Counted from the stretch's first letter, positions 1,322-17,409 are shown. The stretch is DNA of 64,000 nucleotides from a virus (IMGVR_UViG_3300037419_003079), one strand, 5' to 3'. Numbers and translations are program-made. Notes: a model not told the origin generated them from the letters alone.

Positions 1322-1356
1322 ATATAATATAACACACGTTAGAAAGAAAAGTCAAG
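1322..1356 (-). promoter_or_regulatory. sigma-A-type promoter (TTGACT-17/18-TATATT) driving 291..1298
   Basis: Reverse complement reads CCTTGACTTTTCTTTCTAACGTGTGTTATATTAT. Same extended -35 (CCTTGACTTT) as the other early promoters. Confidence 0.6.
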
Positions 1357-1368
1357 GACAATCCCTGA

Positions 1369-1647
1369 CTATTTCTTACGATATTTGAGTACCATTAACA
1401 ACATTACGAACGCTAATCCTTCATTAAAGATTTCCGTCACCATGTAGCCCCAAACTCCTGAGGTCTTAAACACGATGACTGCGTTAACAACTAAACATGA
1501 TAATGCTAGATTAAGAATAATCCAAAATGCTAGGCTCATACCTGTTACATCTTTAGATTTAAATGTCTTTGCTATCTGAGGTAAGTAGCAAATGCCTAAT
1601 AAGATACCTGCAATACTAGGTAACAAGTTTAATAGAAAATTTTGCAT
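1369..1647 (-). CDS. PQ-loop (SemiSWEET/MtN3-like) small membrane protein
   Basis: 92 aa with three predicted TM segments and an LPQI motif in TM1 (CYLPQIAKTF). AAGGAGAG RBS. Stop/start overlap (TAATG) with the upstream gene. Confidence 0.5.
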   Translation of the reverse strand: MQNFLLNLLPSIAGILLGICYLPQIAKTFKSKDVTGMSLAFWIILNLALSCLVVNAVIVFKTSGVWGYMVTEIFNEGLAFVMLLMVLKYRKK

Positions 1648-2051
1648 TATTTAAACTCTCCTTCGTCCTTGCTTGCACCTGTGTAGTATACTTGGGCTAG
1701 GTGTAAATCAAGCAATTCTTTATTTAGATTCTTCCATACTCCATTGTCTAGATAAAAGATAGTTCCTAAGTATCTGCTAAAGCTACCATCTTTAAATTTA
1801 ATGCTCTCTACAGCCATTTGCTTGCCCTCTAGAGTGGTTTTAACATGCTCCTTAGCCTTACTAGCTAGGGCTTTCCTTTCGGCTGTTTTAGAGCCAATCT
1901 CAGCAGTATTAATGCCATCTAGTCGGAATGTGATTCTTCTTAAATCATCAAAACCGTTTTCTACTAGTACTGTTAGTGTGTCTCCATCATGAATGTCAAT
2001 AATAGAATGAATATCTCGTCTGAATGTATCAAAATACTGCTTAGTTGCCAT
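1647..2051 (-). CDS. staphylococcal/micrococcal nuclease (SNase)-like protein
   Basis: 134 aa. HDGDTLTV ... RLDGINTAEIG matches the SNase DGDT...R(L)xGID(T/A)PE catalytic core. Confidence 0.6.
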   Translation of the reverse strand: MATKQYFDTFRRDIHSIIDIHDGDTLTVLVENGFDDLRRITFRLDGINTAEIGSKTAERKALASKAKEHVKTTLEGKQMAVESIKFKDGSFSRYLGTIFYLDNGVWKNLNKELLDLHLAQVYYTGASKDEGEFK

Positions 2052-2063
2052 TATGTATTCTCC

Positions 2064-2663
2064 TTAGTTGTATTGTTCTTTTAATTCTTTATAATATTTT
2101 CTGCATACAGGAAGATAGTTATTTCCGGGAGCAACTTGGTCTCCTTCAAATACTGGCTTTCCTGTTGCGTCATCTATACGCATATTGAAGATGGCTTTTC
2201 CTCCACAACAAGGACATATAGTTTTAAATTCTTGGAACTTATCTGCTATTTCAAATAGTCTCCTACTGCCTTCAAATAAGTTTCCAAACGAATCTGTCCT
2301 AAGACCATAAGCCATAACTGGAATATCGAATCTATCTACAATCTCTCCTAGTTCTTCCACTTGCTCTCTAGTTAGAAATTGAGCCTCGTCAACTAGGACA
2401 ACCGATATATCAAGTGATTCCATACTATCTAAGAATCTCATATAGTCTAATAGTAGATTTCCTCTGTCGTTATCAAGAACCATATCTACTTTACGCTTAA
2501 TATCTAATGCTCTTGATATTACATAAGCACCATCTCTTGTGTCTAGTTTGGGCTTTACGACTAGTACTCTGTGATTTCTTTCTTCGTAGTTGTGTGCAAC
2601 CATGAGTAATTGTGCTGATTTACTTGCGTTCATTGGTGCGTGAATCCAGTGTAGACTAGCCAT
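2064..2663 (-). CDS. tdk: thymidine kinase
   Basis: 199 aa. P-loop region plus C-terminal zinc ribbon (CPCCGGKA ... PVCRKYY) typical of type II TK. The DEAQF motif is present. Confidence 0.9.
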   Translation of the reverse strand: MASLHWIHAPMNASKSAQLLMVAHNYEERNHRVLVVKPKLDTRDGAYVISRALDIKRKVDMVLDNDRGNLLLDYMRFLDSMESLDISVVLVDEAQFLTREQVEELGEIVDRFDIPVMAYGLRTDSFGNLFEGSRRLFEIADKFQEFKTICPCCGGKAIFNMRIDDATGKPVFEGDQVAPGNNYLPVCRKYYKELKEQYN

Positions 2664-2952
2664 TATAAGTCACCTCCTCATATGTCTCATAAAATATGTT
2701 TTCTTTACATGGGTAAGTTTCACCCATTACTCCTGTAATAATAAAATCACCTTCTGACACGAGCATATGTCCTTCAAGAGTAGGTATGTAGTATCTTCCA
2801 TCTTTAGCAGACTTAGAACCCCACAGACCACTAAGACTAGCGTGGTCTCTTATAGTAGGGTATTTTGAACTGTCTTTTATGTATTCATCTTCAAAGAATT
2901 GGATTGCGTCAATAACAACTGGTTTCTTTCTGTATTTCTTATTCTCAGCCAT
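2656..2952 (-). CDS. hypothetical protein (98 aa)
   Basis: ORF translationally coupled to tdk (8-nt overlap). It lies in the same operon. Confidence 0.55.
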   Translation of the reverse strand: MAENKKYRKKPVVIDAIQFFEDEYIKDSSKYPTIRDHASLSGLWGSKSAKDGRYYIPTLEGHMLVSEGDFIITGVMGETYPCKENIFYETYEEVTYNG

Positions 2953-3349
2953 TGTACAACTCTCCTAATATTTCAGGGAAAATCTCTGACCAGTCATCAC
3001 TTATTCTTTCAATGTCGCTTTCTTCGCACTCACTTCCAAATTGAATTTCCATAAATTCCAATCCTCTATCTAGTGCCTTAACACTATGCAGACTTCCAAT
3101 TGGAATATCCATATTAGAACCTTGTTTTACAAATCTTACTTCTCCATCTTGCACAAAAAGTCCTTCTCCATTAATAACTGTCCATACTTCTTGACGGTGA
3201 AAATGTTTTTGATAACTAATGTGACAATGTGGATTAACAAAGATTCGTTTAATCTTGCAATGCTTTCTGCCTCTGATTTGAAAATTAAGTACTTCATAGC
3301 TACCCCATCTAGTAGGGATAATTGTGTTTAATTCTTCATTTTTAATCAT
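2945..3349 (-). CDS. cupin-fold protein
   Basis: 134 aa. The HxH...E...H-like region (HCHISYQKHFHRQEVWTVINGEG ... SLHSVKA) is consistent with a cupin metal site. Confidence 0.55.
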   Translation of the reverse strand: MIKNEELNTIIPTRWGSYEVLNFQIRGRKHCKIKRIFVNPHCHISYQKHFHRQEVWTVINGEGLFVQDGEVRFVKQGSNMDIPIGSLHSVKALDRGLEFMEIQFGSECEESDIERISDDWSEIFPEILGELYNG

Positions 3350-3381
3350 ATCAAGTACCTCCGTTTTTGTTTATATTTATA

Positions 3382-3409
3382 TTATAAATGTTTTATAAAA
3401 AATTGTCAA
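3382..3409 (-). promoter_or_regulatory. sigma-A consensus promoter (TTGACA-17-TATAAT) for the cupin-tdk-nuclease-PQ operon
   Basis: Reverse complement reads CCTTGACAATTTTTTATAAAACATTTATAATAT. Confidence 0.75.
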
Positions 3410-3471
3410 GGAATAATATTTGAATAACTACATATAATATTATTGGAGAGGCTGTGCCATTAGTCCTGTCC

Positions 3472-3501
3472 TTGACAAAACGTGTGTTCTTATGGTAAAA
3501 T
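3472..3501 (+). promoter_or_regulatory. divergent sigma-A promoter (TTGACA-18-TAAAAT) for 3524..3796
   Basis: CTTGACAAAACGTGTGTTCTTATGGTAAAATAG sits ~25 nt upstream of the RBS of the plus-strand gene. Confidence 0.65.
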
Positions 3502-3523
3502 AGACTCATAAGGAGTGATATAA

Positions 3524-3796
3524 ATGGCAAACAATAGAGACAATAAAATAGTACACATCGACCCAATATATATAAAATACCGTAAGATGTGGAAAGAAAA
3601 CAGATGGCAGTTCAGTGGAGATTTGGTTAAGTTAACAATAAAGCAAAACAAAGTTGGATTAGACAATATAGAGAAACATGCTATGGATACGATGAATAGA
3701 GTGATTAACGAAAACGATGGTAAATGGACAGAAGGATATGAATACGATAACGGTATACTTAGTAAGATAAAAAATAATAGAGATAAGAAGAAATGA
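3524..3796 (+). CDS. hypothetical basic protein (90 aa)
   Basis: Own promoter, AAGGAG RBS and own terminator. It is the only plus-strand gene in the left arm. Confidence 0.6.
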   Translation: MANNRDNKIVHIDPIYIKYRKMWKENRWQFSGDLVKLTIKQNKVGLDNIEKHAMDTMNRVINENDGKWTEGYEYDNGILSKIKNNRDKKK

Positions 3797-3821
3797 CCAC
3801 TTTATAGTGGTTATTTTTTTG
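3796..3821 (+). terminator. rho-independent terminator
   Basis: ACCACTTTATAGTGGT stem-loop followed by TATTTTTTT. Confidence 0.75.
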
Positions 3822-3835
3822 TTTAAATTTCCCTT

Positions 3836-3868
3836 TAAAAAAAGAGCCTAAGTAAATTACTTGGCTCT
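3836..3868 (-). terminator. rho-independent terminator after DHFR gene
   Basis: AGAGCC...GGCTCT stem overlapping the stop codon. A7 on the plus strand gives U7 on the minus-strand transcript. Confidence 0.65.
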
Positions 3869-4339
3869 ATCGTAAACTTCAAATATTAAGTCATATCCAT
3901 TATCAACTTCATGAGTTCTTCTTAATTCCTTCCACTCACTGAAATCTACCATAGGGAAGTAAGCGTCAGCACCTTCTATAACAGTGTGAACATTTGTTAT
4001 GTATAGTCTATCTGCATACGGTAAAAATTGTTCATATATACTAGAACCACCAATTATAAATGTATCTAAAAATTGAGACTCTTTAGCTGTCTTTAAAACC
4101 TTATCTATATCATCAGTAACGACAATGTTATCTGTTTCTTTCATAGTTTTACTTAATACTACATTGATTCGGTTTGGTAGTGGCTTTCCTATACTTTCAT
4201 AGGTATTCCTACCCATTACCACTATATGACCTTCTGTTATACGCTTAAAGTAAGCTAGGTCTTTTGGCAAGTGCCAAGGTAGTTCATTGTTCTTTCCTAT
4301 TGCATTTTTTCTGTCCTTACATACGATTAAATTAATCAT
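3857..4339 (-). CDS. folA: dihydrofolate reductase
   Basis: 160 aa. N-terminus MINLIVCKDRKNAIGKNNELPWHLPKDLAYFKRIT is a classic DHFR signature. Confidence 0.9.
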   Translation of the reverse strand: MINLIVCKDRKNAIGKNNELPWHLPKDLAYFKRITEGHIVVMGRNTYESIGKPLPNRINVVLSKTMKETDNIVVTDDIDKVLKTAKESQFLDTFIIGGSSIYEQFLPYADRLYITNVHTVIEGADAYFPMVDFSEWKELRRTHEVDNGYDLIFEVYDRAK

Positions 4340-4523
4340 CTCTTTCTGCCTCCTTGCTGACCATTGCTGATATTACCTCTATAATTCCTAATAGTATTAA
4401 AGATAAGGTGTGGGACATTGCGACACAAACTATCTCGCTAACATCTCTAGATACAAAAGAAGTTCTCACCGAGAATAAAGCTATAACGGTAAGAACTATC
4501 CTTGCAAAATTAAACCTACTCAA
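4332..4523 (-). CDS. possible small membrane protein between thyA and folA
   Basis: 63-aa hydrophobic ORF that exactly fills the thyA-folA gap and overlaps both neighbours. It has only a TTG start and no clear RBS. Confidence 0.3.
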   Translation of the reverse strand: MSRFNFARIVLTVIALFSVRTSFVSRDVSEIVCVAMSHTLSLILLGIIEVISAMVSKEAERDD

Positions 4524-5447
4524 CTACAAACCTACAGACACATTACCTTTAATTGGAGGAAATGGGTCATATCCTTCTATTTCAAAATCATCAACTTTAT
4601 AATCGAAGATACTATCAGGTTTTCTTTTGATTATCAATTTAGGTAACTCTTTAGGTTCTCTAGTTAATTGTAATTTTACTTGCTCAATATGATTATTGTA
4701 GATATGAGCGTCACCTATTGTATGTACGAAATCTCCTACTTCTAAATCACATTGTTGTGCTATCATATGAGTTAATAGTGCATAACTTGCAATATTATAA
4801 GGGATTCCTAAGAATACATCTCCTGAACGCTGATATAACTGACAAGATAACTTTCCATCAGCTACATAGAACTGGAATAAAACATGACATGGTGGTAAAG
4901 CCATTTCTTCAATCTGTCCTACATTCCATGCACTAACAATTAATCTTCGACTGTTAGGGTTTATATTGATTTGTTCAATAAGATTTGAGATTTGGTCAAT
5001 GGTAACTGCTACAAACATTTCGTCATCGTAGTTAAATTCTGAATCAGCATACCAACTTCTCCATTGAGAACCGTAGATAGGTCCGAGGTCTCCCTCCCAT
5101 ATCTTGTGGTCATAGTCTCTAATCATTTGAACATATTCTTTTTGATTAAGTTCTGTATTAGGGAATCTTTCTTTGAAGTTTCTGTATGCGTCAGGATTCC
5201 ATATATTAACTCCATTGTCAACTAGATATTTAATATTTGTGTCTCCTTCTAAGAACCAAAGTAGTTCATGAATAATTCCTTGTAATCTAACTCCACTCAT
5301 ATCTTTTGTTGTCATAAGTGGAAATCCTTTTGATAAGTCATATCTCATTTGATATCCGAAAACTGAGATAGTTCCTGTTCCTGTTCTATCTCCTTTTTGT
5401 GTTCCGTTTTCTAATATGTGACTACATAAGTCATGATATTGTTTCAT
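4524..5447 (-). CDS. thyA: thymidylate synthase (ThyA family)
   Basis: 307 aa with a PPCH catalytic-Cys motif ([13 protein letters not shown]). The adjacent DHFR argues for a genuine dTMP synthase. Confidence 0.85.
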
Positions 5448-5785
5448 TGTAACCTCTCCTTGATAGACTGATAAACATCGTCCTTTACTTTGTATACTGC
5501 AACTGTTTTATTTGTAACTAAACACTGTCTTTTTCCAATTACTTCGACAATGCCCATAGATTCCATTTCGTTTAATCTAGGGTGTGTATTGTTACGCTCA
5601 GGAGAGCGAAAGAAACCAATGCTGTGCATTTCAGTTGCTAACTCACTAGCAGTTACTCCTTGTGGGAAACAAAGCAACTCAGTGAAGACCTGAGATTGCC
5701 TAGTTCCTAATGTTTTAATAACTTCGTTAAATGACTTTCGTCTAGTTTGATTAGTTATCATATTAAAAACCTCCAAAGTCACCAA
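5444..5785 (-). CDS. winged-helix (MarR/ArsR/PadR-like) DNA-binding protein
   Basis: 113 aa. Helix-turn-helix-like segment (TASELATEM) followed by a beta wing. It overlaps thyA by 4 nt. Confidence 0.45.
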
Positions 5786-6026
5786 AATTCTTAATTATTC
5801 TACTTGAAATAGCGTTCCAATCGTCTATATGAACTACTGCTGACTTGTCAACAAAGATATTTCCACCATATGTAGATAATTCAACTGAGTATCCACTAGG
5901 CATACTAGGGTCAAATGTAACATCTACCACAGAATACTTATGTCCTATTTTTCCTATAAAAGGTGCTTCATAACTTCTAATATCCATTAGCAGTACAGCA
6001 ACTACTCCTGCCTCAACTTTTCTCAT
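5763..6026 (-). CDS. hypothetical protein (87 aa)
   Basis: ORF overlapping the downstream gene. It is inside the operon. Confidence 0.5.
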   Translation of the reverse strand: MRKVEAGVVAVLLMDIRSYEAPFIGKIGHKYSVVDVTFDPSMPSGYSVELSTYGGNIFVDKSAVVHIDDWNAISSRIIKNFGDFGGF

Positions 6027-6028
6027 GA

Positions 6029-6169
6029 TTACTCACCTCGCATATCTATAATATCTAGAATAGTCTCTTGTAATGACTCGTTGATTCCTGCTTTATCACA
6101 AGCTTTTTTAAACTCACTTAAAGGAAGTTCATTTACCAATCTCACTAATAATTGTTCTAAATTAATCAT
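6029..6169 (-). CDS. small hypothetical protein (46 aa)
   Basis: Not in the ORF track (<60 aa). GGAGG RBS 8 nt before the ATG at 6169. Its stop lies 3 nt before the next gene's start. Confidence 0.4.
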   Translation of the reverse strand: MINLEQLLVRLVNELPLSEFKKACDKAGINESLQETILDIIDMRGE

Positions 6170-7396: not shown

Positions 7397-7425
7397 TGTT
7401 ATCGCCTCCTGTTATCTTATAATTG

Positions 7426-7456
7426 TATTATAACTTTATTCTGTGGAAAAAGTCAA
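7426..7456 (-). promoter_or_regulatory. sigma-A promoter (TTGACT-17/18-TATAAT)
   Basis: Reverse complement reads CCTTGACTTTTTCCACAGAATAAAGTTATAATAC. Confidence 0.7.
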
Positions 7457-7608
7457 GGATAAAATTGATAAAAACTTCAAGGAAATAATAGAATATTATC
7501 GGTATGCAAAGTGACTCTACTACTCCGAAATCCGTATAAAAGAATAATAGTGCCGATGGAAGTAAAAGGAATATAATTATTTTTAAAATCATCATAATAT
7601 CTGACATA

Positions 7609-8784: not shown

Positions 8785-8815
8785 GTCTTACCTCCTTTGC
8801 TTATCTTATATTTAT

Positions 8816-8844
8816 ATTATAGTTTCCCATAGTCCGAAAGTCAA
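8816..8844 (-). promoter_or_regulatory. sigma-A consensus promoter (TTGACT-17-TATAAT)
   Basis: Reverse complement reads CCTTGACTTTCGGACTATGGGAAACTATAATATAAATA. Confidence 0.75.
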
Positions 8845-8865
8845 GGACAAATTGTAAAAAATTTC

Positions 8866-8890
8866 AAAAAAAAGAGAGGCGTTAGCCTCC
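8866..8890 (-). terminator. rho-independent terminator after SPFH gene
   Basis: GAGGC-GTTA-GCCTC stem, with plus-strand A8 giving U8 on the minus-strand RNA. Confidence 0.6.
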
Positions 8891-8895
8891 CTCAA

Positions 8896-10713: not shown

Positions 10714-10745
10714 TTCAATTACCTCCTCGTTTATCTTATATTTGT

Positions 10746-10775
10746 ATTATAACTTGCTTGGATACAAAAAGTCAA
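10746..10775 (-). promoter_or_regulatory. sigma-A promoter (TTGACT-18-TATAAT)
   Basis: Reverse complement reads CCTTGACTTTTTGTATCCAAGCAAGTTATAATAC. Confidence 0.7.
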
Positions 10776-10810
10776 GGATAAATCAGAAAACTTTTTTAAT
10801 TTATATCCCT

Positions 10811-10840
10811 AAAAAAAATCGACTAGGAAATGTCCTAGTC
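10811..10840 (-). terminator. rho-independent terminator downstream of the tRNA
   Basis: GACTAGGA-CATTT-CCTAGTC stem followed by U8 on the minus-strand RNA. Confidence 0.75.
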
Positions 10841-11787: not shown

Positions 11788-11884
11788 TAAACATCTCTCC
11801 TTATTATATCTAATATAAAACGTTGCCCTCTATAAGAGGGATTGGGATATACCCTTACTGATATGTTTTTTATCAGTAATATTA

Positions 11885-11957
11885 TTATGTATTCTTATAT
11901 ATTAAGTTGTCAAGGTATCTTATAAATATATTATAACACAAGACCTTTTAAAAGTCA
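11885..11957 (-). promoter_or_regulatory. tandem sigma-A promoters (TTGACT-17-TATAAT and TTGACA-17-ACATAA)
   Basis: Reverse complement reads CCCTTGACTTTTAAAAGGTCTTGTGTTATAATATATTTATAAGATACCTTGACAACTTAATATATAAGAATACATAAT. Confidence 0.65.
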
Positions 11958-11976
11958 AGGGTTATTACGTTAGAAA

Positions 11977-12300
11977 GGAGGTTTAGCGTTGCCTCCTTCC
12001 ATGATTATTGACATATCATAGTTAGTGTCTGTATTCTATTCCATGATATACACGCCAATGTGGTAGTAACCAACACTTCGATTGGTCTTTGTTGAGAGTA
12101 GAACTATATGGTGAGAGCCTAAACCCTTCATCTCTCTGCACAATGCCCGCTACCGTCACCTTCCATTGTGTTTCCTAGTTCGTAGCTACTGAACTAATCG
12201 CCACACCTTGCGAGTATGACTTCCCTTTCGGGCATAACAGGACTAATCCCCTTCACCTGTCTGTGTCGTCCCCTTTCTATCTTTCCTATGACGACTTTCC
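11977..12300 (-). ncRNA. candidate ~300-nt GC-rich non-coding RNA transcribed from promoter 12314-12342 and ending at hairpin 11977-11996
   Basis: No ORF. GC well above local background. Perfect TTGACT-17-TATAAT promoter directly upstream on the minus strand. GGAGG-N10-CCTCC hairpin at the 3' side. Internal long hairpin TAGTTC-AGTAGCTAC-GAACTA. Confidence 0.35.
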
Positions 12301-12313
12301 TAATTACTATGTA

Positions 12314-12342
12314 ATTATAACATACTTATAATATAAAGTCAA
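12314..12342 (-). promoter_or_regulatory. sigma-A consensus promoter (TTGACT-17-TATAAT) with no ORF downstream for ~300 nt
   Basis: Reverse complement reads CCCTTGACTTTATATTATAAGTATGTTATAATTAC. Confidence 0.7.
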
Positions 12343-12348
12343 GGGTAA

Positions 12349-12633
12349 TTATCTTACGCTCTGACCTGAATGAATTTTTCTAATAGCCTCTAGTGCCTCA
12401 ATATTCTGAGGTTGATTACGCATAATCCAAAGCCTTAATTCATTATATTTTAATGCGAATTTATGTTCTAACTCTCTGTCTAGTTGCTCTTTCCAATAAT
12501 CTGCTACTGCTCTAGTTGTAAAGAAAATGTCGTGCATGGATTTGTCAGATAAATGTATGCTTTCATTTGTTTGAATGTGGTAGGCAATCTTTCTTGCGTC
12601 ATATTCCACTCTAGGGTCATACTTTCTTTTCAT
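12349..12633 (-). CDS. hypothetical protein (94 aa; start refined to ATG with AAGGAGG RBS)
   Basis: The ORF-track ORF was trimmed to the internal ATG at 12633, which has a strong RBS. No recognisable motif. Confidence 0.5.
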   Translation of the reverse strand: MKRKYDPRVEYDARKIAYHIQTNESIHLSDKSMHDIFFTTRAVADYWKEQLDRELEHKFALKYNELRLWIMRNQPQNIEALEAIRKIHSGQSVR

Positions 12634-12646
12634 GCTACATTCCTCC

Positions 12647-13165
12647 TTAGATTTTGTAGTACTTCTTAATGGATTCAATAAGTGAGTCTAAGTCAGGAGA
12701 TATACTACCTCCTGAATCTTTGATAGTTCCAACTACATAAAGGTTACGGTATGGAAATTGATTTTCTACAGCGTCCTGAGACAAAGCATGTAATTTTTTC
12801 ATGTTATCTCTACCTTGTTGGCGAATATCTGTAAATAATGCAAATATAGGTCTAGGTTTAGCACCTGTTCTTAACTGATAGTTAATATCAAAACCTGCAA
12901 ACTTACCAATCTCACATGCAACTCCTGAATCTATCTCAACTCCATCAATAACTGCTATCAAAAATTGAGAGTCTAGTAGATATTCATCGTCTCCTCTTGA
13001 GATAGTTAAACTATTAGCATATCCTGTTTTATCATTTAGTGCCTCGTTTTCTTGTGGAACATATAGTTCTAACTCAGGAAACACCAATCTTAGTTCGTTT
13101 GCTATGATAGTATTATATAGATAGTCTGCCTCACTGAATAGTCCGTTTGCTAGGTACGCCTTCAT
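12647..13165 (-). CDS. nucleoside 2-deoxyribosyltransferase-family protein (NDT/Rcl-like)
   Basis: 172 aa. N-terminus MKAYLANGLFSEADYLYN... with a conserved acidic pocket (DSGVACEIG) characteristic of NDT/DNPH1-like enzymes. Confidence 0.6.
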   Translation of the reverse strand: MKAYLANGLFSEADYLYNTIIANELRLVFPELELYVPQENEALNDKTGYANSLTISRGDDEYLLDSQFLIAVIDGVEIDSGVACEIGKFAGFDINYQLRTGAKPRPIFALFTDIRQQGRDNMKKLHALSQDAVENQFPYRNLYVVGTIKDSGGSISPDLDSLIESIKKYYKI

Positions 13166-13422
13166 TAGTCACTACCTTCTTCTGCTACATCTTCTTTCAC
13201 TACTTCTACATTTTCTTCTAGAACGATTTCTTCTTCTTTGTTTAATCGAAGAATAAATTTATCTTTATTACTCTTGCTATAATCAACTTCAAGTCCTTCT
13301 AAGTAGTTCTTTTCTAGTTGATGATTAGTTATGTGAATTGGTGCTTTGCCATTCTTTGATAGTCGTCTTATACACTCAATCAATAATAAAGTTAAGACTG
13401 CCTCTTTTGATGTTTCAGCCAT
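13165..13422 (-). CDS. hypothetical acidic protein (85 aa)
   Basis: ORF whose start ATGA overlaps the previous gene's stop. Confidence 0.5.
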   Translation of the reverse strand: MAETSKEAVLTLLLIECIRRLSKNGKAPIHITNHQLEKNYLEGLEVDYSKSNKDKFILRLNKEEEIVLEENVEVVKEDVAEEGSD

Positions 13423-13549
13423 TCATACCTTCCTCCATTTCTAAATATCTTTTAAGTTCTGATGGGTTAAATTCTTCTGAGATTCGCTTGTTAATTTCAG
13501 CCATCTCAACGTATCCTTGTGCCATTTGGTCTTTATCTATTTTTTTCAT
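13415..13549 (-). CDS. small hypothetical protein (44 aa)
   Basis: Not in the ORF track. AAGGAGATGG RBS 5 nt before the ATG at 13549. Its TGA overlaps the ATG of the next gene (translational coupling). Confidence 0.4.
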   Translation of the reverse strand: MKKIDKDQMAQGYVEMAEINKRISEEFNPSELKRYLEMEEGMNG

Positions 13550-13593
13550 TCCAACCATCTCCTTAAATTATATTTATATTATAACTTCCCTGT

Positions 13594-13619
13594 AAAAATT
13601 TGAGGGGGCGAACCCCCTC
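13594..13619 (-). terminator. hairpin terminator/attenuator between promoter 13657-13685 and first gene of its operon
   Basis: GAGGGGG-CGAA-CCCCCTC stem followed by AAAUUUUUA on the minus-strand RNA. It sits ~35 nt downstream of the predicted start site. Confidence 0.45.
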
Positions 13620-13656
13620 TGAAAGAGTAGAAATTATGTATTGATTAACTATTTAT

Positions 13657-13685
13657 ATTATACTTGAATTATAACTAAAAGTCAA
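13657..13685 (-). promoter_or_regulatory. sigma-A consensus promoter (TTGACT-17-TATAAT)
   Basis: Reverse complement reads CCTTGACTTTTAGTTATAATTCAAGTATAATATAAATAG. Confidence 0.75.
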
Positions 13686-13695
13686 GGACAAATTC

Positions 13696-14421
13696 TCAAC
13701 CTTTACCAATTCGCATAATGCTTACTTTAACATGCTTTTGTCTTCCGAACTGTTTAGCAATGCTTTCGTTTCTTACAAGAACGTCTAACTTATGTCCTCT
13801 AATAGCACCACCTTTATCTAACGCTTGTGCGTAGAATGTTTCTCCACGAGCCTCAATCTTGATAATGGAGTACATAGGAATCACATTAGGGTCTACTGCT
13901 ACAACCCTCATTCCATCTACTTTAGTGGTATTTGCTACATTGTATCCTGTCGATGTCATTCCAGTGCAACCTTCTGAACAAAAGGCTGTGTAGGCTGTCG
14001 CCTCCATATAAAGAACTCTCTTAGCTTGTTGTTGTGATTTCACCACTTTGGTTTTTCTGATATTGTTCTTTTGCCTTACCGAGGGAGATTCACTTCCATC
14101 TTTATATGTTTCAATCTTCTTCTTTAGGTTTGCGTTCTCTTTTGTAAGATTAGCAATCTTGCTGTTCATTCGTTGTGCTTCTTGTAAATGTTTTTGTTTT
14201 TCTAAATCTTTCTTTTGAAGGTCAACTTTCGCTTGGAAAAGCCTATCCTCAAGACTATCAATCTGCATGTTTAAATCTACTCTCTCTTTTTGCATATCTC
14301 TCGCATTGGTCTCGGAAATTATTGCTCCTGCTCCGAATGTTGTCAGACCTGCTAATAAAATAGCTACGGATAAGATATTCATAGACTTAGAAAAGAATTT
14401 TTTCTCCTCCATTACTATCAT
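13696..14421 (-). CDS. membrane-anchored 3D-domain protein (MltA/YabE/YuiC-like cell-wall-active domain)
   Basis: 241 aa with an N-terminal TM segment, a coiled coil, and a C-terminal 3D domain (YMEATAYTAF ... VVAVDPNVIP ... LDKGGAIRGHKLDVL). Confidence 0.65.
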   Translation of the reverse strand: MIVMEEKKFFSKSMNILSVAILLAGLTTFGAGAIISETNARDMQKERVDLNMQIDSLEDRLFQAKVDLQKKDLEKQKHLQEAQRMNSKIANLTKENANLKKKIETYKDGSESPSVRQKNNIRKTKVVKSQQQAKRVLYMEATAYTAFCSEGCTGMTSTGYNVANTTKVDGMRVVAVDPNVIPMYSIIKIEARGETFYAQALDKGGAIRGHKLDVLVRNESIAKQFGRQKHVKVSIMRIGKG

Positions 14422-14443
14422 CTCCTTTGCATATTATAATTGT

Positions 14444-14472
14444 ATTATACACGCCCTTCCATATCTTGTCAA
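14444..14472 (-). promoter_or_regulatory. sigma-A consensus promoter (TTGACA-17-TATAAT)
   Basis: Reverse complement reads CCCCTTGACAAGATATGGAAGGGCGTGTATAATACAATTATAAT. Confidence 0.75.
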
Positions 14473-14486
14473 GGGGTGTCCCTGAG

Positions 14487-14516
14487 TAAAATAAAAGAGA
14501 GGCTAAATGCCCCTCT
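14487..14516 (-). terminator. weak terminator after MBL-fold gene
   Basis: AGAGG-N9-CCTCT stem followed by a U-rich tract (CUUUUAUUUUAC) on the minus-strand RNA. Confidence 0.3.
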
Positions 14517-15294
14517 ATTTAACTTCAAAACTGTAAGTCTCTCTTGGTAGTGCAATTCTCATAAATGAATCTTTAACCTCTAAGTAATGTTCTTCTAGGT
14601 CATCTCCGTAGTGCATTATGAAAATATTTCGTTTATACTTGTTTGGCAATGATTTAAGTTCTTCAAGTGAAGCGTGCACCTTACCATCATAATCAAACAT
14701 TTGGCAATCATGGAAAATAGCTTGTGCACCGTCTTTAACTGCCATCTTAATAAATTCTTCGTTAAACAATGAATCAGATGTGTAAACTATGTAATCGTGT
14801 TCTGAGATAATTAAGCCATATGACTTTTTCTTAGGGATATGCTCAGTGCTATAGACTGAAATCATGCAATCGTTAAAGAAGAAGTATTGGTCTCTATCGT
14901 TAACAATTTCATATGTAAAGTAATCATCAAATTTCATTTGTCTATCTAATTCGCCTTCTACCATAGTTCCTTTAAGGACTTTATTCCACAAATCATTTTT
15001 TAAATCTACATGAGGGAAAATAAGGTGTGGCTTTTTCTTTAAAACATATCGTCCAAAGAATCCTGCCTCCTCTAGTCCGTATACATGGTCTCCGTGGAGG
15101 TGAGTAATAAAAATAGCGTCAATATCTGACCATGAGAACTCTGATTTAAATAAATCATCAGGTGTTGTTCTTCCACAGTCAATCATCATATTCTTTTTTA
15201 CTTCTCCATTTGTTACAGTTAACACTGCACTGTTATTGCCAAAGTTCTTAGCAAATGCACTTCCTGTTCCTAGAAAAGTTAAGTCTATTTTCAT
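14515..15294 (-). CDS. metallo-beta-lactamase-fold hydrolase (RNase Z / cyclic-nucleotide phosphodiesterase-like; Apyc1-like candidate)
   Basis: 259 aa. HxHxDH motif (ITHLHGDHVYG) plus downstream His/Asp ligands. Last gene of its operon. Confidence 0.8.
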   Translation of the reverse strand: MKIDLTFLGTGSAFAKNFGNNSAVLTVTNGEVKKNMMIDCGRTTPDDLFKSEFSWSDIDAIFITHLHGDHVYGLEEAGFFGRYVLKKKPHLIFPHVDLKNDLWNKVLKGTMVEGELDRQMKFDDYFTYEIVNDRDQYFFFNDCMISVYSTEHIPKKKSYGLIISEHDYIVYTSDSLFNEEFIKMAVKDGAQAIFHDCQMFDYDGKVHASLEELKSLPNKYKRNIFIMHYGDDLEEHYLEVKDSFMRIALPRETYSFEVK

Positions 15295-15809
15295 AGGTCT
15301 ATCCTCTCCTCTAACACTTCGTTGTACATTACCAATAAATCAATAATACCATCTAGGTCATCTAAGGAGTTCATTAAGATTTCTAACTCCCAAAACATGT
15401 AGTAACTGCTTTTATCGTCTTTTTCTCTATGGTTAAAGACTTGTTTTACTTGGATACTAACTCTTTCGCTATGATGTGCAAACTTCAACAACATCTTAAC
15501 AAGTTCTATCCAATCAGAACGCTTATGTGGAACAACTTTGATATAAAGGTCTTCACCTATATTTTTAGCTGACATAACTTTCACATCAGCAATAGCAAAT
15601 AGTTCTCCAACAATCTTGTTTTTATAACTTAAAAATTCTAGTGATTCTCGACATTCTTCTTCTGTCATAACCTCTTTTACAAATCCATATCCTTCGCAAT
15701 ATCCACAATCAGTCCAATTTGAGTCTAGGAAGTCTTGTTTCACCTTCCTAAACCCACCTTTTCCATGACATACTGGACACGCTACATTGTAAGGTGTTAC
15801 AGTTTCCAT
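15291..15809 (-). CDS. zinc-finger protein (172 aa; start refined to METVTPYN with AAGGAGG RBS)
   Basis: CPVCHGKGG ... CGYCEGYG treble-clef-like Cys pairs. Overlaps the MBL gene by 4 nt. Confidence 0.5.
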   Translation of the reverse strand: METVTPYNVACPVCHGKGGFRKVKQDFLDSNWTDCGYCEGYGFVKEVMTEEECRESLEFLSYKNKIVGELFAIADVKVMSAKNIGEDLYIKVVPHKRSDWIELVKMLLKFAHHSERVSIQVKQVFNHREKDDKSSYYMFWELEILMNSLDDLDGIIDLLVMYNEVLEERIDL

Positions 15810-15823
15810 GATAATCCTCCTTT

Positions 15824-16513
15824 TTATTTGCCATACATTAATCGTTGCCAAGCACCGTCAGAGAATCCTGCTCGTTGCATTTGACCAACTGTTCTGTCTA
15901 CCGCATAAGGGATTCGATAAAAAGTTACAATGTCTTTTTCAACATCATACACTGCATATGAGGCTCTAGGGTCTCCATCACGAGGAGAACCAACTGAGCC
16001 AACATTGATAATTGCTCTTTTGCCATCTAAGTGCGTAGAGTAATATGACATATGTAAGGGTGATTTAATAAACTCTGCTTTGTTGTATGAATTTACAAAA
16101 CTTATAGATGGTGCGAACATATTTCCTACAAACAACATTTCAAAGTCTCCTAAAAATCCTTGTGGTGTTTCTCTTGAGAATACAATTTCATCTAACCTAT
16201 GACTATCTACTAAGTTTTTCAAATATGATACTTCTTTTCCTAATTTTTCTCTTGTCCAATCTACTGCAAATCTTGATTGAGGAGTCAATCCAAAGCTTGC
16301 GTCCTCGTCAACTACTGCTAAGTCATGGTCTCCCATAACTATGTAATGAAACTCCTCTAATGTTAGAGTTAATGTCTCATTTGGTTTCGGTCCATTACCA
16401 ACAATGTTGCCTAGGTGAACTTTCATGTCCACTCCGACACTGTTCATATGTTCCAATACTGATTGCAGTGCATATAGATTGGAATGTGTATCTGATACAA
16501 TTCCAATTTTCAT
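15824..16513 (-). CDS. calcineurin-like metallophosphoesterase
   Basis: 229 aa. N-terminus MKIGIVSDTHSN ... GD(H)D ... GN(H/I)VG motifs of the MPP superfamily. Confidence 0.8.
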   Translation of the reverse strand: MKIGIVSDTHSNLYALQSVLEHMNSVGVDMKVHLGNIVGNGPKPNETLTLTLEEFHYIVMGDHDLAVVDEDASFGLTPQSRFAVDWTREKLGKEVSYLKNLVDSHRLDEIVFSRETPQGFLGDFEMLFVGNMFAPSISFVNSYNKAEFIKSPLHMSYYSTHLDGKRAIINVGSVGSPRDGDPRASYAVYDVEKDIVTFYRIPYAVDRTVGQMQRAGFSDGAWQRLMYGK

Positions 16514-16737
16514 TTTTTAATCTTCCTCTCGACTATTTTTTTAACGATTGGGTAGTGGTCTCCGTCTGTGAAGTATTTGACTCGTTTATCGCATTGGTCA
16601 CACTCTGAAATGAAAAACATTTCATTATTTTCTACTCCATAATCCTTTGTGATTGGCTTTAAATTATAAAGGCACTCAGGGCATTTTGGTTTCTTACCAT
16701 CTTTGAAAAACACAGCGTCTAGTACTTCTTTAGCCAT
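16510..16737 (-). CDS. small zinc-ribbon protein (75 aa)
   Basis: CPECLYN ... CDQCDKR pairs of Cys. Overlaps both neighbours by 4 and 1 nt. Confidence 0.5.
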   Translation of the reverse strand: MAKEVLDAVFFKDGKKPKCPECLYNLKPITKDYGVENNEMFFISECDQCDKRVKYFTDGDHYPIVKKIVERKIKK

Positions 16738-17309
16738 TATTGACCACCTACAATCTCAATTATTTCTTTCTCAATTTCTGATAGTGTCTTTCTAGTTGTG
16801 TCTACATGATGAAATTTAACATTGTCATATGTATGTTTTATAGTGAAGTCTTGCATAATAGTTTTATATAGGTTTTGCTGTTTAATTGTTTCTGCTACAC
16901 TTTCTTCTGCTTTTCCAAAAGGAACTTTGTCTCTTAGTAGTCGTCCTTTTAGTTCTTCTTCGTCTTCGATAGTAAAGAATATAACGTCTACTTGCATAGC
17001 CATTCTTTTTAAGTTAAAAACTAGATGTCGATAGTCATTAGAAAAGTCATAGTCTTTATATAATTCCGAGAAAACTCTCTCAGAGAAAAAGAATCTATCA
17101 AAGACAAAAGTTGAATCATGATATTTCATTGTTTTTAGAAATTCGTACCAGTTCCAGTAGTACTCTGCTATTTTTTCGTGTCCTTCTGCTCCATCGTCAT
17201 GAAAACCAGTTGGATTAATCAAAGTAATTTCTGAAACTTTTTCTCGAATTGCTCTTGCAATAGTAGATTTTCCAGTTCCACGACCACCTTCAAGAATTAT
17301 AAGTCTCAT
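16737..17309 (-). CDS. P-loop nucleotide/polynucleotide kinase (dNMP-kinase or Pnk-kinase-like)
   Basis: 190 aa. Walker A motif EGGRGTGKST near the N-terminus, with lid-like basic residues. It is the first gene of a kinase / Zn-ribbon / MPP / Zn-finger / MBL operon. Confidence 0.65.
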   Translation of the reverse strand: MRLIILEGGRGTGKSTIARAIREKVSEITLINPTGFHDDGAEGHEKIAEYYWNWYEFLKTMKYHDSTFVFDRFFFSERVFSELYKDYDFSNDYRHLVFNLKRMAMQVDVIFFTIEDEEELKGRLLRDKVPFGKAEESVAETIKQQNLYKTIMQDFTIKHTYDNVKFHHVDTTRKTLSEIEKEIIEIVGGQ

Positions 17310-17343
17310 TTAACCACACCTTTTTATTTTATATTTCATTTAT

Positions 17344-17372
17344 ATTATAAACTAAAAACTAAAAAAAGTCAA
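17344..17372 (-). promoter_or_regulatory. sigma-A consensus promoter (TTGACT-17-TATAAT)
   Basis: Reverse complement reads CCTTGACTTTTTTTAGTTTTTAGTTTATAATATAAATG. Confidence 0.75.
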
Positions 17373-17380
17373 GGTCTATC

Positions 17381-17409
17381 TTGATTTAGTTGTTAGTATA
17401 TATTATAAT
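17381..17409 (+). promoter_or_regulatory. divergent sigma-A promoter (TTGATT-17-TATAAT) for the S1-domain gene
   Basis: CTTGATTTAGTTGTTAGTATATATTATAATAGC. Back-to-back with the minus-strand promoter. Confidence 0.7.

What the first reader, a model, noticed from the sequence alone, without database searches (positions are those of the whole stretch)
1322..17409. Array of ~14 near-identical consensus sigma-A promoters with conserved extended -35 box (CCTTGACTTT) and divergent promoter pairs
Every early transcription unit is preceded by TTGAC(T/A)-17/18-TATAAT, and most share the longer CCTTGACTTT context. The sites are 1322-1356, 3382-3409, 6885-6913, 7426-7456, 8816-8844, 10746-10775, 11930-11957, 12314-12342, 13657-13685, 14444-14472 and 17344-17372, plus plus-strand partners at 3472-3501 and 17381-17409. 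The degree of conservation beyond the hexamers suggests a duplicated promoter cassette, or an extra recognition determinant such as a phage early factor or UP/extended -35 contacts. It also gives a clean operon map. Terminators sit immediately after the next promoter (e.g. 13594-13619), so they overlap the neighbouring unit's leader.
Basis: seen in the sequence. Interest (0 to 1): 0.55.

Follow-up and report, generated by a model that had tools for sequence, protein, structure and literature searches.

The report
Repeated strong early-promoter cassettes in phage
An uncultured phage of a low-GC Gram-positive host drives its leftward nucleotide-metabolism arm from about a dozen copies of one conserved, near-perfect housekeeping-sigma promoter cassette, a real and selected feature of a kind already known from phages such as T4.

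Summary
Ten exact TTGACW-N16-19-TATAAT sites occur where 0.31 are expected, plus one site with TATATT. All lie on the minus strand between 1326 and 17374, in intergenic gaps, co-oriented with the genes. All 11 carry CC before the -35 box.

It runs (often) terminator hairpin, A/T-rich tract, TTTGT-CC-TTGACT-TT, variable spacer, T-TATAAT-AYAAWTATAAGATAA, then the Shine-Dalgarno sequence. The block after the -10 box contains a second TATAA exactly 11 bp after the first.

Paralogous spacers are at background identity (0.31) while the blocks are fixed. Relatives at about 70% coding identity keep the same blocks. So selection, not recent duplication, maintains the cassette.

Best reading: strong host primary-sigma early promoters arranged as composite terminator-promoter-leader cassettes, like T4 "über" early promoters and PeSL elements.

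The second -10-like box matches the geometry needed for sigma-dependent promoter-proximal pausing in E. coli. That is an untested but specific lead.

I rate this a new member of a known kind, of moderate to low interest.

The parts
17329..17374 (-). Cassette 1 (CC-TTGACT-17-TATAAT plus downstream block). It drives the Tmk-like gene 17309-16737 and four more genes.
   Evidence: 35.5 bits
14429..14474 (-). Cassette 2 (CC-TTGACA-17-TATAAT-ACAATTATAAT). It is preceded by terminator 14516-14496 and drives the peptidase gene 14421-13696.
   Evidence: 22.9 bits
13642..13687 (-). Cassette 3, of the subclass with TTATAAT inside the spacer. It fires straight into terminator 13619-13602, which predicts an RNA of about 50-60 nt.
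   Evidence: the same arrangement is kept in L017 at 973 -> hairpin -> 1083
13567..13596 (-). Decayed cassette that keeps GTTATAATATAAATATAAT plus the SD. Its -35 box is replaced by the terminator T-run. The orthologues in L004, L005 and L017 are full cassettes.
12299..12344 (-). Cassette 4 (TTATAAT-in-spacer subclass), followed by about 330 nt with no convincing ORF.
11915..11960 (-). Cassette 5 (CC-TTGACT-17-TATAAT-ATATTTATAAGATA). The spacer is conserved in its orthologues L017_2081, L015_668 and L005_4367.
11869..11915 (-). Tandem weaker promoter (CC-TTGACA-18-CATAAT) that abuts cassette 5.
10731..10777 (-). Cassette 6, the best-scoring copy. It follows tRNA-Trp and terminator 10840-10821 and drives ClpP-like, 87-aa and SPFH genes.
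   Evidence: (55.5 bits)
8801..8846 (-). Cassette 7. It is preceded by terminator 8893-8872 and an A/T-rich tract, and drives the SLOG-family gene 8784-8404.
   Evidence: (49.2 bits)
7412..7458 (-). Cassette 8, driving the 157-aa gene 7396-6923.
   Evidence: 55.2 bits
6870..6915 (-). Cassette 9, driving the ClpP-like ... ThyA ... DHFR operon (6855-3857).
   Evidence: 45.1 bits
3366..3411 (-). Cassette 10 (CC-TTGACA). It drives the cupin, Tdk, SNase and PQ-loop genes and sits back-to-back with the plus-strand promoter at 3472.
   Evidence: 38.0 bits
1311..1357 (-). Cassette 11 (-10 box TATATT). Hairpin 1370-1350 overlaps its -35 box. It drives the DHH phosphoesterase gene 1298-291.
   Evidence: 38.3 bits
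3470..3501 (+). Divergent partner promoter (CC-TTGACA-18-TG-TAAAAT) for the 90-aa plus-strand gene 3524-3796. The pair is conserved in L017 and L015.
17381..17409 (+). Divergent partner promoter (TTGATT-17-TATAAT) for the S1-domain protein gene. Its -35 box lies 8 bp from that of cassette 1.
18857..18885 (+). Primary-sigma-like promoter (TTGACA-17-TATAAA) in front of the phage sigma-factor gene.
18902..19558 (+). Phage-encoded alternative sigma factor (divergent SigB/F/G type). It is the likely driver of the rightward structural arm, which has no cassettes.
   Evidence: late role is inferred
14496..14516 (-). Intrinsic terminator hairpin upstream of cassette 2.
13602..13619 (-). Intrinsic terminator (GAGGGGG-TTCG-CCCCCTC plus T-run) lying downstream of cassette 3.
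   Evidence: z = -3.9
10821..10840 (-). Intrinsic terminator after tRNA-Trp and upstream of cassette 6. The hairpin is conserved in L015, L017 and L006.
8872..8893 (-). Intrinsic terminator upstream of cassette 7.

Best explanation
What it is. The sites are strong promoters read by the host's housekeeping (primary, sigma-A type) RNA polymerase holoenzyme. They are built into a repeated composite regulatory cassette about 75-110 bp long. The parts, in order, are:
- an intrinsic terminator hairpin with a T-run (at about half the copies);
- an A/T-rich, UP-like tract;
- TTTGT-CC-TTGACT-TT;
- about 12 free spacer bases;
- (G)T-TATAAT;
- a fixed A/T-rich discriminator and initial transcribed block, AYAAWTATAAGATAA;
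- a GGAGG ribosome-binding site and a start codon.

What it does. Each copy starts a short transcription unit of the leftward arm. That arm encodes nucleotide salvage (Tmk, Tdk, ThyA, DHFR, nucleoside deoxyribosyltransferase), two ClpP-like proteases, an SPFH protein, a peptidase, a tRNA and non-coding stretches. This lets the phage capture host polymerase immediately after infection without any phage factor. The rightward structural arm lacks such promoters and presumably depends on the phage's own SigF/G-like sigma factor.

Why the extra positions are conserved. They are kept by selection because they tune polymerase binding, DNA opening and the first steps of RNA synthesis. They are not left over from recent duplication.

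Shown versus inferred. The sequence pattern, its statistics, its placement relative to genes and its conservation in relatives are shown. Recognition by sigma-A, early timing, promoter strength and the role of each extra block are inferred.
For: Statistics and placement:
- 10 exact matches against 0.31 expected, all on the coding strand of the leftward arm.
- CC is present in 11 of 11 sites.
- A matrix trained on other genomes finds 10 window sites at 22.9-55.5 bits against a random maximum of 7.9, and nothing elsewhere in the window.
- Spacers are 17 bp (8 sites) or 18 bp (3 sites), and an SD plus ATG follow 27-38 nt after the -10 box at 8 sites.

Selection rather than duplication:
- Paralog pairwise identity is 0.97-1.0 for CC, 0.64-0.70 for TTT and 0.62-0.64 for the 15 nt after the -10 box.
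- It is 0.31-0.32 in the mid-spacer and 0.29-0.32 further downstream.
- Syntenic relatives with 67-72% coding identity keep the cassette segments at 86-92%.

Not a translation signal:
- The downstream block is also kept in cassettes that precede tRNAs or non-coding DNA: L006_2065, L015_3438, L015_668, L005_4367 and L017_7338.

Composite layout:
- The hairpin, A/T tract and promoter layout is visible in the alignment.

Phage sigma factor:
- It is an alternative SigB/F/G-type sigma, not a primary one.
- The rightward arm has no cassette.

Published precedent:
- T4 early promoters are 'über' UP/-35/TGn/-10 promoters with additional regions of consensus (PMC2988021).
- Early promoters of Listeria phage CKA15, mapped by ONT-cappable-seq, have a conserved TTGACTT and a -10 motif extended on both sides. 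They also drive unannotated regions near tRNAs (PMC12282133).
Against: - There is no transcript data. The host is unknown because the window is a JGI metagenome contig, so sigma-A recognition rests on the general bacterial primary-sigma consensus.
- The canonical extended -10 motif (TGn) is present in only 3 of 11 sites.
- CC at -37/-36 is not a described sigma-A contact, to my knowledge.
- The exact cassette is almost absent from bacterial genomes: 4 single hits in 185,579 species genomes. So it is not ordinary host promoter grammar, which leaves room for a phage-specific reader.
- One cassette fires directly into a terminator. A simple 'promoter for the next gene' view does not explain that.
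Confidence: 0.8

Rival explanations
1. The block after the -10 box is a built-in sigma-dependent promoter-proximal pause signal. The second -10-like box (TATAAT, or TATAAG/TAAGAT) is re-bound by sigma-A still attached to the polymerase. This would stall the polymerase about 16-17 nt into the leader, at the ribosome-binding site. The stall could couple transcription to translation, meter the flow from very strong promoters, or provide a loading point for a factor that decides whether the many inter-unit terminators are read through. This refines the best explanation rather than replacing it.
For: - The geometry matches what genome-wide nascent-RNA mapping in E. coli found necessary for +16-20 pauses: a canonical -10, a 6-nt spacer, a YR+1Y start-site motif and a -10-like element 11 bp downstream of the -10. 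Lambda pR' is the paradigm (PMC7876045).
- Here the sequence is TATAAT, then ATAAAT, then T-A-T. The second TATAA starts exactly 11 bp after the first in 8/11 window cassettes and 18/22 cassettes of relatives, and almost never at another offset.
- Among 115 viral sites with no similarity to this lineage that share only CCTTGACTTT-N-TATAAT, offset 11 is again favoured: 30 sites at <=1 mismatch, against 4-13 at each other offset.
- The block is kept in front of tRNAs and non-coding DNA, so it acts at the level of transcription, not translation.
Against: - The last base of the second box, the equivalent of the critical T at -7, is G in 4/8 window copies and 11/18 copies in relatives. A shifted TAAGAT at offset 13 would have to serve instead.
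- Sigma-dependent pausing at such elements has been mapped in E. coli, not, to my knowledge, in a Firmicute.
- An A/T-rich discriminator and start region is also expected simply for fast DNA opening at a strong promoter.
- No Q-like antiterminator was found. The only hint is a faint PF06530 hit (E = 0.0085) inside sigma region 4.
Confidence: 0.25
2. The extra conserved positions (CC, TTT, downstream block) form the binding site of a phage-encoded or phage-injected factor. This could be an activator or polymerase modifier that favours phage promoters, as T4 Alt does. It could also be a repressor that shuts the whole early set off together.
For: - The exact cassette is essentially confined to phage DNA: 16 viral loci against 4 single hits in 185,579 bacterial species genomes.
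- Conservation is as strong as in the hexamers at CC and extends over the start site, where repressors typically bind.
- There is precedent. T4 Alt stimulates some early promoters through determinants outside -35/TGn/-10, and early shut-off is a separate, phage-controlled step (PMC2988021).
Against: - No DNA-binding regulator was identified in the arm. The 90-aa divergent gene, the 157-aa gene and others have no significant family matches.
- The block has no dyad symmetry (sequence).
- The same upstream half plus a TATAA at offset 11 occurs in contigs with no detectable protein similarity to the window, such as L007 and L011. That fits a property of the polymerase better than a lineage-specific protein.
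Confidence: 0.15
3. The cassettes are chiefly recombination modules of the PeSL type. Their similarity is maintained because they act as portable homology for inserting, deleting and swapping genes between related phages. On this view the sequence beyond the hexamers has no transcriptional role.
For: - The composite layout of hairpin terminator, A/T-rich tract, strong primary-sigma promoter and SD is the one described for PeSLs (PMC2839356 and PMC4122927).
- The window segment between cassettes 10775 and 8844 (ClpP-like, 87-aa, SPFH, terminator) is absent from L015, which has one cassette followed by the SLOG gene. In L017 and L006 a different 193-aa-class gene takes its place.
- Different genes, tRNAs and non-coding DNA follow orthologous cassettes.
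Against: - By my own hand tally from the block list (no script or control), only 10 of 24 ends of non-homologous segments fall at cassettes. About 29% would be expected if breakpoints fell at random gene boundaries, so this is not significant.
- Several indels, including ThyA-DHFR and SNase, have no cassette at their ends.
- Recombinational homogenisation would also homogenise the spacer, which is at background identity.
Confidence: 0.2
4. The cassettes are read by the phage's own sigma factor (18902-19558) rather than by host sigma-A.
For: The phage does encode a sigma factor next to the arm.
Against: - It is a divergent SigB/SigF/SigG-type alternative sigma.
- Described promoters of that group do not resemble TTGACA-17-TATAAT (established knowledge of Bacillus sporulation sigma factors).
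- Its own gene is preceded by a TTGACA-17-TATAAA site, as expected if host sigma-A must make it first.
Confidence: 0.04

Closest known systems
T4 early promoters (Pe), the 'über' UP/-35/TGn/-10 promoters read by unmodified host sigma-70 holoenzyme (PMC2988021)
   Same: - Dozens of near-consensus primary-sigma promoters occur in one phage genome.
- Extra conserved positions lie outside the hexamers.
- There is an A/T-rich upstream tract.
- The function is immediate capture of host polymerase.
- A separate phage-encoded sigma factor serves late genes.
   Different: - The host here is Gram-positive-type and the phage is unrelated.
- TGn is not a class feature here (3 of 11 sites).
- The -35 context is CC-TTGACT-TT, unlike the T4 consensus.
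- The strongest extra block lies downstream of the -10 box and carries a second -10-like box at +11.
PeSL (promoter-early stem-loop) composite cassettes of T4-like phages (PMC2839356, PMC4122927)
   Same: - A repeated unit of stem-loop terminator, A/T-rich tract and consensus early promoter sits between short gene units in a plastic region.
- At least one indel here is flanked by two cassettes in one genome and marked by one cassette in another.
   Different: - A hairpin accompanies only about 5 of 11 copies.
- The breakpoint association is not significant.
- Spacers are not homogenised.
- Mini-circles are untested.
- The phage lineage and the host phylum both differ.
Early sigma-A-type promoters of Listeria phage CKA15 (P100-like), mapped by ONT-cappable-seq (PMC12282133)
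   Same: - The host is a Firmicute.
- The conserved -35 reads TTGACTT.
- The -10 motif extends on both sides of the hexamer.
- There is an A/T-rich upstream element.
- The same promoter class drives highly transcribed unannotated regions near tRNA genes.
   Different: - The -10 region differs (ATGxTATACTTAA there, TATAAT-AYAAWTATAA here).
- No CC or second -10-like box is reported there.
- The CKA15 promoters are experimentally mapped, whereas these are not.
Sigma-70-dependent promoter-proximal pause elements (lambda pR' type; E. coli 'G1d' promoters, PMC7876045)
   Same: The cassette has a canonical -10, a 6-nt spacer, a pyrimidine-purine-pyrimidine start site and a -10-like hexamer 11 bp downstream of the -10.
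   Different: - Those elements are known from E. coli and lambdoid phages, where pR' pausing serves Q loading.
- No pausing data and no Q homologue exist here.
- The last base of the second hexamer is often G.

Membership tests
Primary-sigma (sigma-A / sigma-70) -35/-10 promoter | TTGACA-like -35 hexamer and TATAAT-like -10 hexamer | tested here: met
   Ten sites score 11-12 of 12 and one scores 10 of 12.
Primary-sigma (sigma-A / sigma-70) -35/-10 promoter | Spacer of 17 +/- 1 bp | tested here: met
   The spacer is 17 bp in 8 sites and 18 bp in 3 sites.
Primary-sigma (sigma-A / sigma-70) -35/-10 promoter | Intergenic position, co-oriented with a downstream gene and RBS | tested here: met
   All 11 sites are on the coding strand in intergenic gaps. 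Eight are followed by GGAGG-type SD and a start codon 27-38 nt after the -10 box. Three are followed by non-coding sequence.
Primary-sigma (sigma-A / sigma-70) -35/-10 promoter | Initiation by sigma-A holoenzyme about 7 nt after the -10 box | not testable with these tools
   This needs 5'-end mapping or in vitro transcription.
Phage 'über' early promoters (T4 Pe type) | Many copies with conserved positions beyond the hexamers | tested here: met
   Pairwise identity is 0.97-1.0 for CC, 0.64-0.70 for TTT and 0.62-0.64 for the downstream 15 nt, against a 0.31 background.
Phage 'über' early promoters (T4 Pe type) | UP-like A/T-rich tract upstream of -35 | tested here: inconclusive
   It is clear in a subset (AAATTTTTT.. 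in the alignment). The 8 nt before CC reach 0.42-0.49 identity, and further upstream identity is 0.33-0.35.
Phage 'über' early promoters (T4 Pe type) | Extended -10 (TGn) | tested here: not met
   TG at -15/-14 occurs in only 3 of 11 sites. G at -14 occurs in 6 of 11.
Phage 'über' early promoters (T4 Pe type) | Active immediately after infection without phage protein synthesis | not testable with these tools
   The phage is uncultured and known only from a metagenome.
PeSL composite promoter-terminator cassettes | Stem-loop terminator adjacent to a consensus early promoter | tested here: inconclusive
   A hairpin lies upstream at 14472, 10775 and 8844, overlaps at 1355, and lies downstream at 13685. 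No hairpin was detected at the other six sites.
PeSL composite promoter-terminator cassettes | Located at indel or replacement boundaries between related genomes | tested here: inconclusive
   There is one clean case, the 10775-8844 segment. Overall 10 of 24 ends fall at cassettes against about 29% expected. This is my own hand tally from the block list, with no script or control.
PeSL composite promoter-terminator cassettes | Cassette-to-cassette recombination products (mini-circles) | not testable with these tools
   This needs inverse PCR or long reads of infected cells or virions.
Sigma-dependent promoter-proximal pause element | Canonical -10, 6-7 nt spacer, YR+1Y start motif | tested here: met
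   The sequence is TATAAT, then ATAAAT/ACAAAT, then T-A-T in the consensus. This is a sequence feature only.
Sigma-dependent promoter-proximal pause element | -10-like hexamer 11 bp downstream of the -10 | tested here: met
   TATAA is at offset 11 in 8/11 window cassettes and 18/22 cassettes of relatives. The sixth base is T in only 2/8 and 7/18.
Sigma-dependent promoter-proximal pause element | Sigma-retaining pause at about +16-20 | not testable with these tools
   This needs NET-seq or in vitro transcription.

The most novel reading that the evidence does not exclude
Every early promoter of this phage lineage carries a hard-wired sigma-A-dependent promoter-proximal pause module: a second -10-like box exactly one helical turn (11 bp) after the real one. 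At least one apparently unrelated lineage has the same arrangement, and there is a weaker tendency across many viral contigs. If so, sigma-dependent pausing would be a general design element of strong phage promoters in Gram-positive hosts and not a lambda pR' speciality. Possible uses are gating read-through of the terminators that separate the units, or coupling the very short leaders to ribosome loading.
Probability: 0.22. Interest if true: 0.6.

Novelty: new member of a known kind. Interest (0 to 1): 0.35.

Why it matters
Practical value. The cassette gives a reliable operon map and a temporal-class prediction for an uncultured phage of roughly 130-160 kb, judging by its relatives. It also provides a compact, portable, probably very strong promoter-leader unit (about 75 bp from -37 to the ATG) for low-GC Gram-positive hosts.

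Conceptual value. The array is a natural mutagenesis experiment. There are 33 non-redundant copies in four genomes, with free spacers and fixed blocks. They show which positions outside the hexamers matter: CC at -37/-36, TTT at -29 to -27, and -6 to +9. The 11-bp-offset second -10-like box links phage promoter design to sigma-dependent pausing, and a synthetic promoter plus Bacillus subtilis RNA polymerase would test that directly.

Limits. None of this overturns current understanding. Arrays of over-optimised early promoters and composite promoter-terminator cassettes are well known in phages.

Tried and rejected
- Close relatives among deposited phages. Megablast of 1-20000 found only a 44-bp match to Bacillus phage G. 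The large terminase is 29% identical to Bacillus Slash/Staley-type phages.
- Anchoring relatives by protein. The S1-domain protein and the metal-dependent hydrolase gave nothing in IMG/VR. The ClpP-like protein gave two loci. The cassette DNA pattern itself was the most productive probe.
- Host grammar. A scan of 185,579 species genomes gave only 4 single hits, 3 of them in Clostridia-class MAGs. I therefore rejected 'ordinary host promoter consensus'.
- Recent duplication or gene conversion. Rejected because the paralogous spacers are at background identity.
- Translation enhancer role for the downstream block. Rejected as the main role because cassettes in front of tRNAs and non-coding DNA keep the block.
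- Late-promoter motif on the rightward arm. k-mer sharing among 13 upstream regions was no better than in shuffled sequence.
- Structured RNAs after cassettes 12342 and in 11290-11445. Folding z-scores are -1.1 and -0.9. Rfam found only tRNA-Trp at gathering score and a sub-threshold wcaG-like hit.
- Regulator candidates. The 90-aa, 157-aa and other small ORFs have no significant Pfam or NCBIfam matches.
- Breakpoint enrichment at cassettes. The result is suggestive but not significant.
- tblastx of the apparently unrelated cassette-bearing contigs against the window found nothing. A fragment of a true relative that lies outside the window's region (L060) also found nothing, so this is weak evidence of unrelatedness.

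Full report
**What the window is**

The 64-kb window is 31-39% G+C, with a strand-skew switch near 17.4 kb. It has no close relative among deposited phages. Its large terminase is 29% identical to those of Bacillus phages Staley, Slash and Stills. Its thymidylate synthase is found on JGI metagenome contigs from sample 3300037420. So this is an uncultured phage with no host given.

The leftward arm (1-17.4 kb, minus strand) encodes:
- a DHH phosphoesterase, a PQ-loop protein, an SNase-like nuclease, thymidine kinase and a cupin;
- DHFR, thymidylate synthase and two ClpP-like proteins;
- a SLOG-family protein, an SPFH protein and tRNA-Trp;
- a nucleoside deoxyribosyltransferase, a peptidase, metallophosphoesterases and a thymidylate-kinase-like protein.

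The rightward arm begins with an S1-domain protein and a divergent SigB/F/G-type sigma factor, with a XerC/D-like recombinase gene on the opposite strand. It continues into terminase and structural genes, including ORFs of 3089 and 2850 aa.

**Checking the observation**

- TTGACW-N16-19-TATAAT occurs 10 times against 0.31 expected, always on the minus strand between 3381 and 17372.
- An eleventh site at 1355-1326 has TATATT.
- CCTTGACTTT is exact at nine sites, all in the same arm and on the same strand.
- CC precedes the -35 box in all eleven sites.
- The two plus-strand partners are present but weaker: TTGACA-18-TAAAAT at 3472-3501 and TTGATT-17-TATAAT at 17381-17409.
- There is also a tandem CCTTGACA-18-CATAAT at 11913-11884, and a decayed copy at 13596-13567 that keeps only GTTATAATATAAATATAAT.
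- The general low-stringency promoter scan is at chance level (83 found, 82.9 expected). The signal therefore lies in the top class only.
- A weight matrix built only from cassettes of related contigs finds ten window sites at 22.9-55.5 bits. Ten random sequences peak at 7.9 bits, and nothing scores in the other 46 kb.

**Anatomy of the cassette**

Aligning the eleven sites shows conservation from -37 to about +9. The consensus is CC-TTGACT-TTt, a free spacer, (g)T-TATAAT, then AtAAaTATAAgATAA.

In eight copies this block runs straight into a GGAGG-type ribosome-binding site, with the start codon 27-38 nt after the -10 box. The predicted leaders are therefore only about 21-32 nt long.

Upstream, several copies carry an intrinsic terminator hairpin with a T-run, followed by an A/T-rich tract (AAATTTTTT...) and TTTGT before the CC.

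Elsewhere the terminator comes first (14516/14472, 10840/10775, 8893/8844) or overlaps the -35 box (1370-1350).

**Duplication or selection?**

Among the eleven window copies and 22 non-redundant copies from relatives, mean pairwise identity is as follows.

| Segment | Mean pairwise identity |
|---|---|
| CC | 0.97-1.0 |
| -35 hexamer | 0.95-0.97 |
| TTT after -35 | 0.64-0.70 |
| -10 hexamer | 0.97-1.0 |
| 15 nt after -10 | 0.62-0.64 |
| Mid-spacer (12 nt) | 0.31-0.32 |
| 16-40 nt after -10 | 0.29-0.32 |

The hexamers and one C were used to pick the sites, so those values are biased. The other segments were not used for selection.

A copy-and-paste origin or gene conversion would leave similar spacers, and they are at background. 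Four IMG/VR contigs are syntenic relatives with 67-72% nucleotide identity in genes, yet the cassette segments match at 86-92%. The blocks are therefore held by purifying selection.

**What the extra blocks might do**

The downstream block is retained in cassettes that precede tRNAs (L006_2065, L015_3438) or non-coding DNA (L015_668, L005_4367, L017_7338). It therefore does not look primarily like a translation signal.

It contains a second TATAA whose first base lies exactly 11 bp after the first base of the -10 box. This holds in 8/11 window copies and 18/22 copies in relatives, and the second box is almost never at another offset.

That geometry is the one reported for sigma-70-dependent promoter-proximal pauses at +16-20 in E. 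coli, with lambda pR' as the model: a canonical -10, a 6-nt spacer, a pyrimidine-purine-pyrimidine start site and a -10-like element 11 bp downstream (PMC7876045).

In 115 viral sites with no similarity to this lineage that share only CCTTGACTTT-N-TATAAT, offset 11 is again favoured. There are 30 sites at <=1 mismatch, against 4-13 at other offsets.

Against this reading, the sixth base of the second box is G more often than T, and pausing is untested. I treat it as a specific, testable refinement with a probability of about 0.2-0.25.

**Host grammar or phage speciality?**

The full cassette pattern hits 16 viral loci but only four single sites in 185,579 bacterial and archaeal species genomes. 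Three of those four are in Clostridia-class MAGs.

The looser upstream half occurs in more than 120 viral loci. Other phages have their own arrays with different lineage-specific extensions, for example L065 and L024/L058.

Repeated, over-optimised promoters are therefore common in phages. This particular extended consensus is characteristic of this lineage and a few others. A phage-specific reader of the extra positions cannot be excluded, but no candidate regulator was found.

**Comparison with known systems**

- T4 early promoters are described as 'über' UP/-35/TGn/-10 promoters with additional regions of consensus that out-compete host promoters (PMC2988021).
- ONT-cappable-seq of Listeria phage CKA15 found early sigma-A-type promoters with TTGACTT, a -10 motif extended on both sides and an A/T-rich upstream element. 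These also drive unannotated regions near tRNAs (PMC12282133).
- PeSLs of T4-like phages are composite cassettes of stem-loop terminator, A/T-rich tract and early promoter that mediate gene shuffling (PMC2839356 and PMC4122927).

The present cassettes share the PeSL layout. One clean case fits PeSL-type exchange. The window segment between cassettes 10775 and 8844 is missing in L015, where a single cassette is followed by the SLOG gene. In L017 and L006 a different gene takes its place. Overall, only 10 of 24 segment ends fall at cassettes, against about 29% expected from gene boundaries. This is my own hand tally from the block list, with no script or control, and it is not significant.

**Temporal logic**

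The rightward structural arm has no cassette. The sigma-factor gene has its own TTGACA-17-TATAAA promoter and is of the alternative SigB/F/G type.

The inferred scheme is that host sigma-A transcribes the leftward arm and the sigma-factor gene first, and the phage sigma factor then serves the late genes. I could not find a late-promoter motif, so that step remains an inference.

**Verdict**

These are almost certainly strong host primary-sigma promoters, organised as conserved composite cassettes under selection. This makes them a new member of a known kind.

The most interesting residue is the fixed second -10-like box at +11, together with the single promoter that fires into a terminator.

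Interest 0.35.

Noticed in passing
window 13685-13602 (minus); L017 973-1083; L060 6099-6170: A full cassette fires directly into a strong intrinsic terminator (z = -3.9), which predicts an RNA of about 50-60 nt. The next promoter follows immediately. The order promoter, short RNA, hairpin, promoter is kept in relative L017, and a similar promoter-then-hairpin arrangement occurs in L060. This could be a small RNA, an attenuator awaiting antitermination, or just compaction.
   Followed up: partly
window 10945-12313 (minus): There is a tRNA/non-coding island inside the early arm: about 330 nt after cassette 12342 and about 520 nt between the 107-aa gene and tRNA-Trp, with no convincing ORFs. Segment 11294-11443 is 87% identical to L017 4942-5092, well above the ~70% coding level. 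Its folding z-score is only -0.9.
   Followed up: partly
window 10964-11053 (minus): There is a sub-threshold Rfam match to the wcaG RNA motif (27.8 bits, gathering score 42, E = 0.018), just upstream of tRNA-Trp.
   Followed up: no
L017 2736-7255: The relative carries ten tRNA genes in the equivalent region. It also has a weak Y-RNA-like (YrlA) hit at 4450-4567 (30.3 bits, gathering score 69) beside a 506-aa DUF2828/DUF7788 protein. From memory only, DUF2828 may be related to the Ro60/TROVE family, so this might be a phage Ro-Y-RNA-like module. The window lacks it.
   Followed up: partly
window 13685, 12342; L017 973, 1532; L015 277, 3818: A subclass of cassettes has a TTATAAT/TTATAAC motif inside the spacer (CCTTGAC-TTTT-nGTTATAATTCAnn-TATAAT) and lacks the second half of the downstream block. 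Most members are followed by non-coding sequence and not by an RBS.
   Followed up: partly
L015 5885-5978; L017 7373-7468: A conserved leader of about 90 nt (AAAACGTAAYCCAAAT...ACGTTTTATCAA) follows orthologous cassettes but precedes different genes in the two relatives (SLOG gene versus a 193-aa ORF). It could be a cis-regulatory RNA.
   Followed up: no
window 17344-17409: The leftward cassette 1 and the rightward promoter for the S1-domain gene are back to back with their -35 boxes only 8 bp apart. Two polymerases probably cannot occupy both at once, so the two arms may compete at this point.
   Followed up: no
window 18660-18860: An extremely A/T-rich, repeat-laden 200-bp stretch lies upstream of the sigma-factor gene. 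It contains a minus-strand TTGACT-17-TATTAT site (18705-18677) that points antisense into the S1-domain operon.
   Followed up: no
window 6238-6855, 10093-10713, 8896-9837: The early arm has two ClpP-like protease paralogues and an SPFH/Band-7 protein. A 44-bp stretch of the SPFH gene (9185-9228) is 93% identical to gp65 of Bacillus phage G.
   Followed up: no
window 17466-18392 (plus): This gene encodes a 308-aa protein with a single S1 RNA-binding domain (CvfD/GSP13-like). It is the first gene of the rightward arm, next to the sigma factor. Its role is unknown, and the likely true start is ATG 17466, after a GAGGAGG site.
   Followed up: partly
window 38668-47937 and 51755-60307 (plus): Two giant ORFs of 3089 and 2850 aa lie in the structural arm.
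   Followed up: no
L065 2953-5526; L024/L058: Other viral contigs carry their own arrays of near-identical promoters. L065 has five copies within 2.6 kb in which even the spacers are conserved, so those look like recent duplications. The 181-kb contig behind L024 and L058 has a different lineage-specific extension (TTGACTTTT..AAAATTnTGnTATAATAWWTATG).
   Followed up: partly
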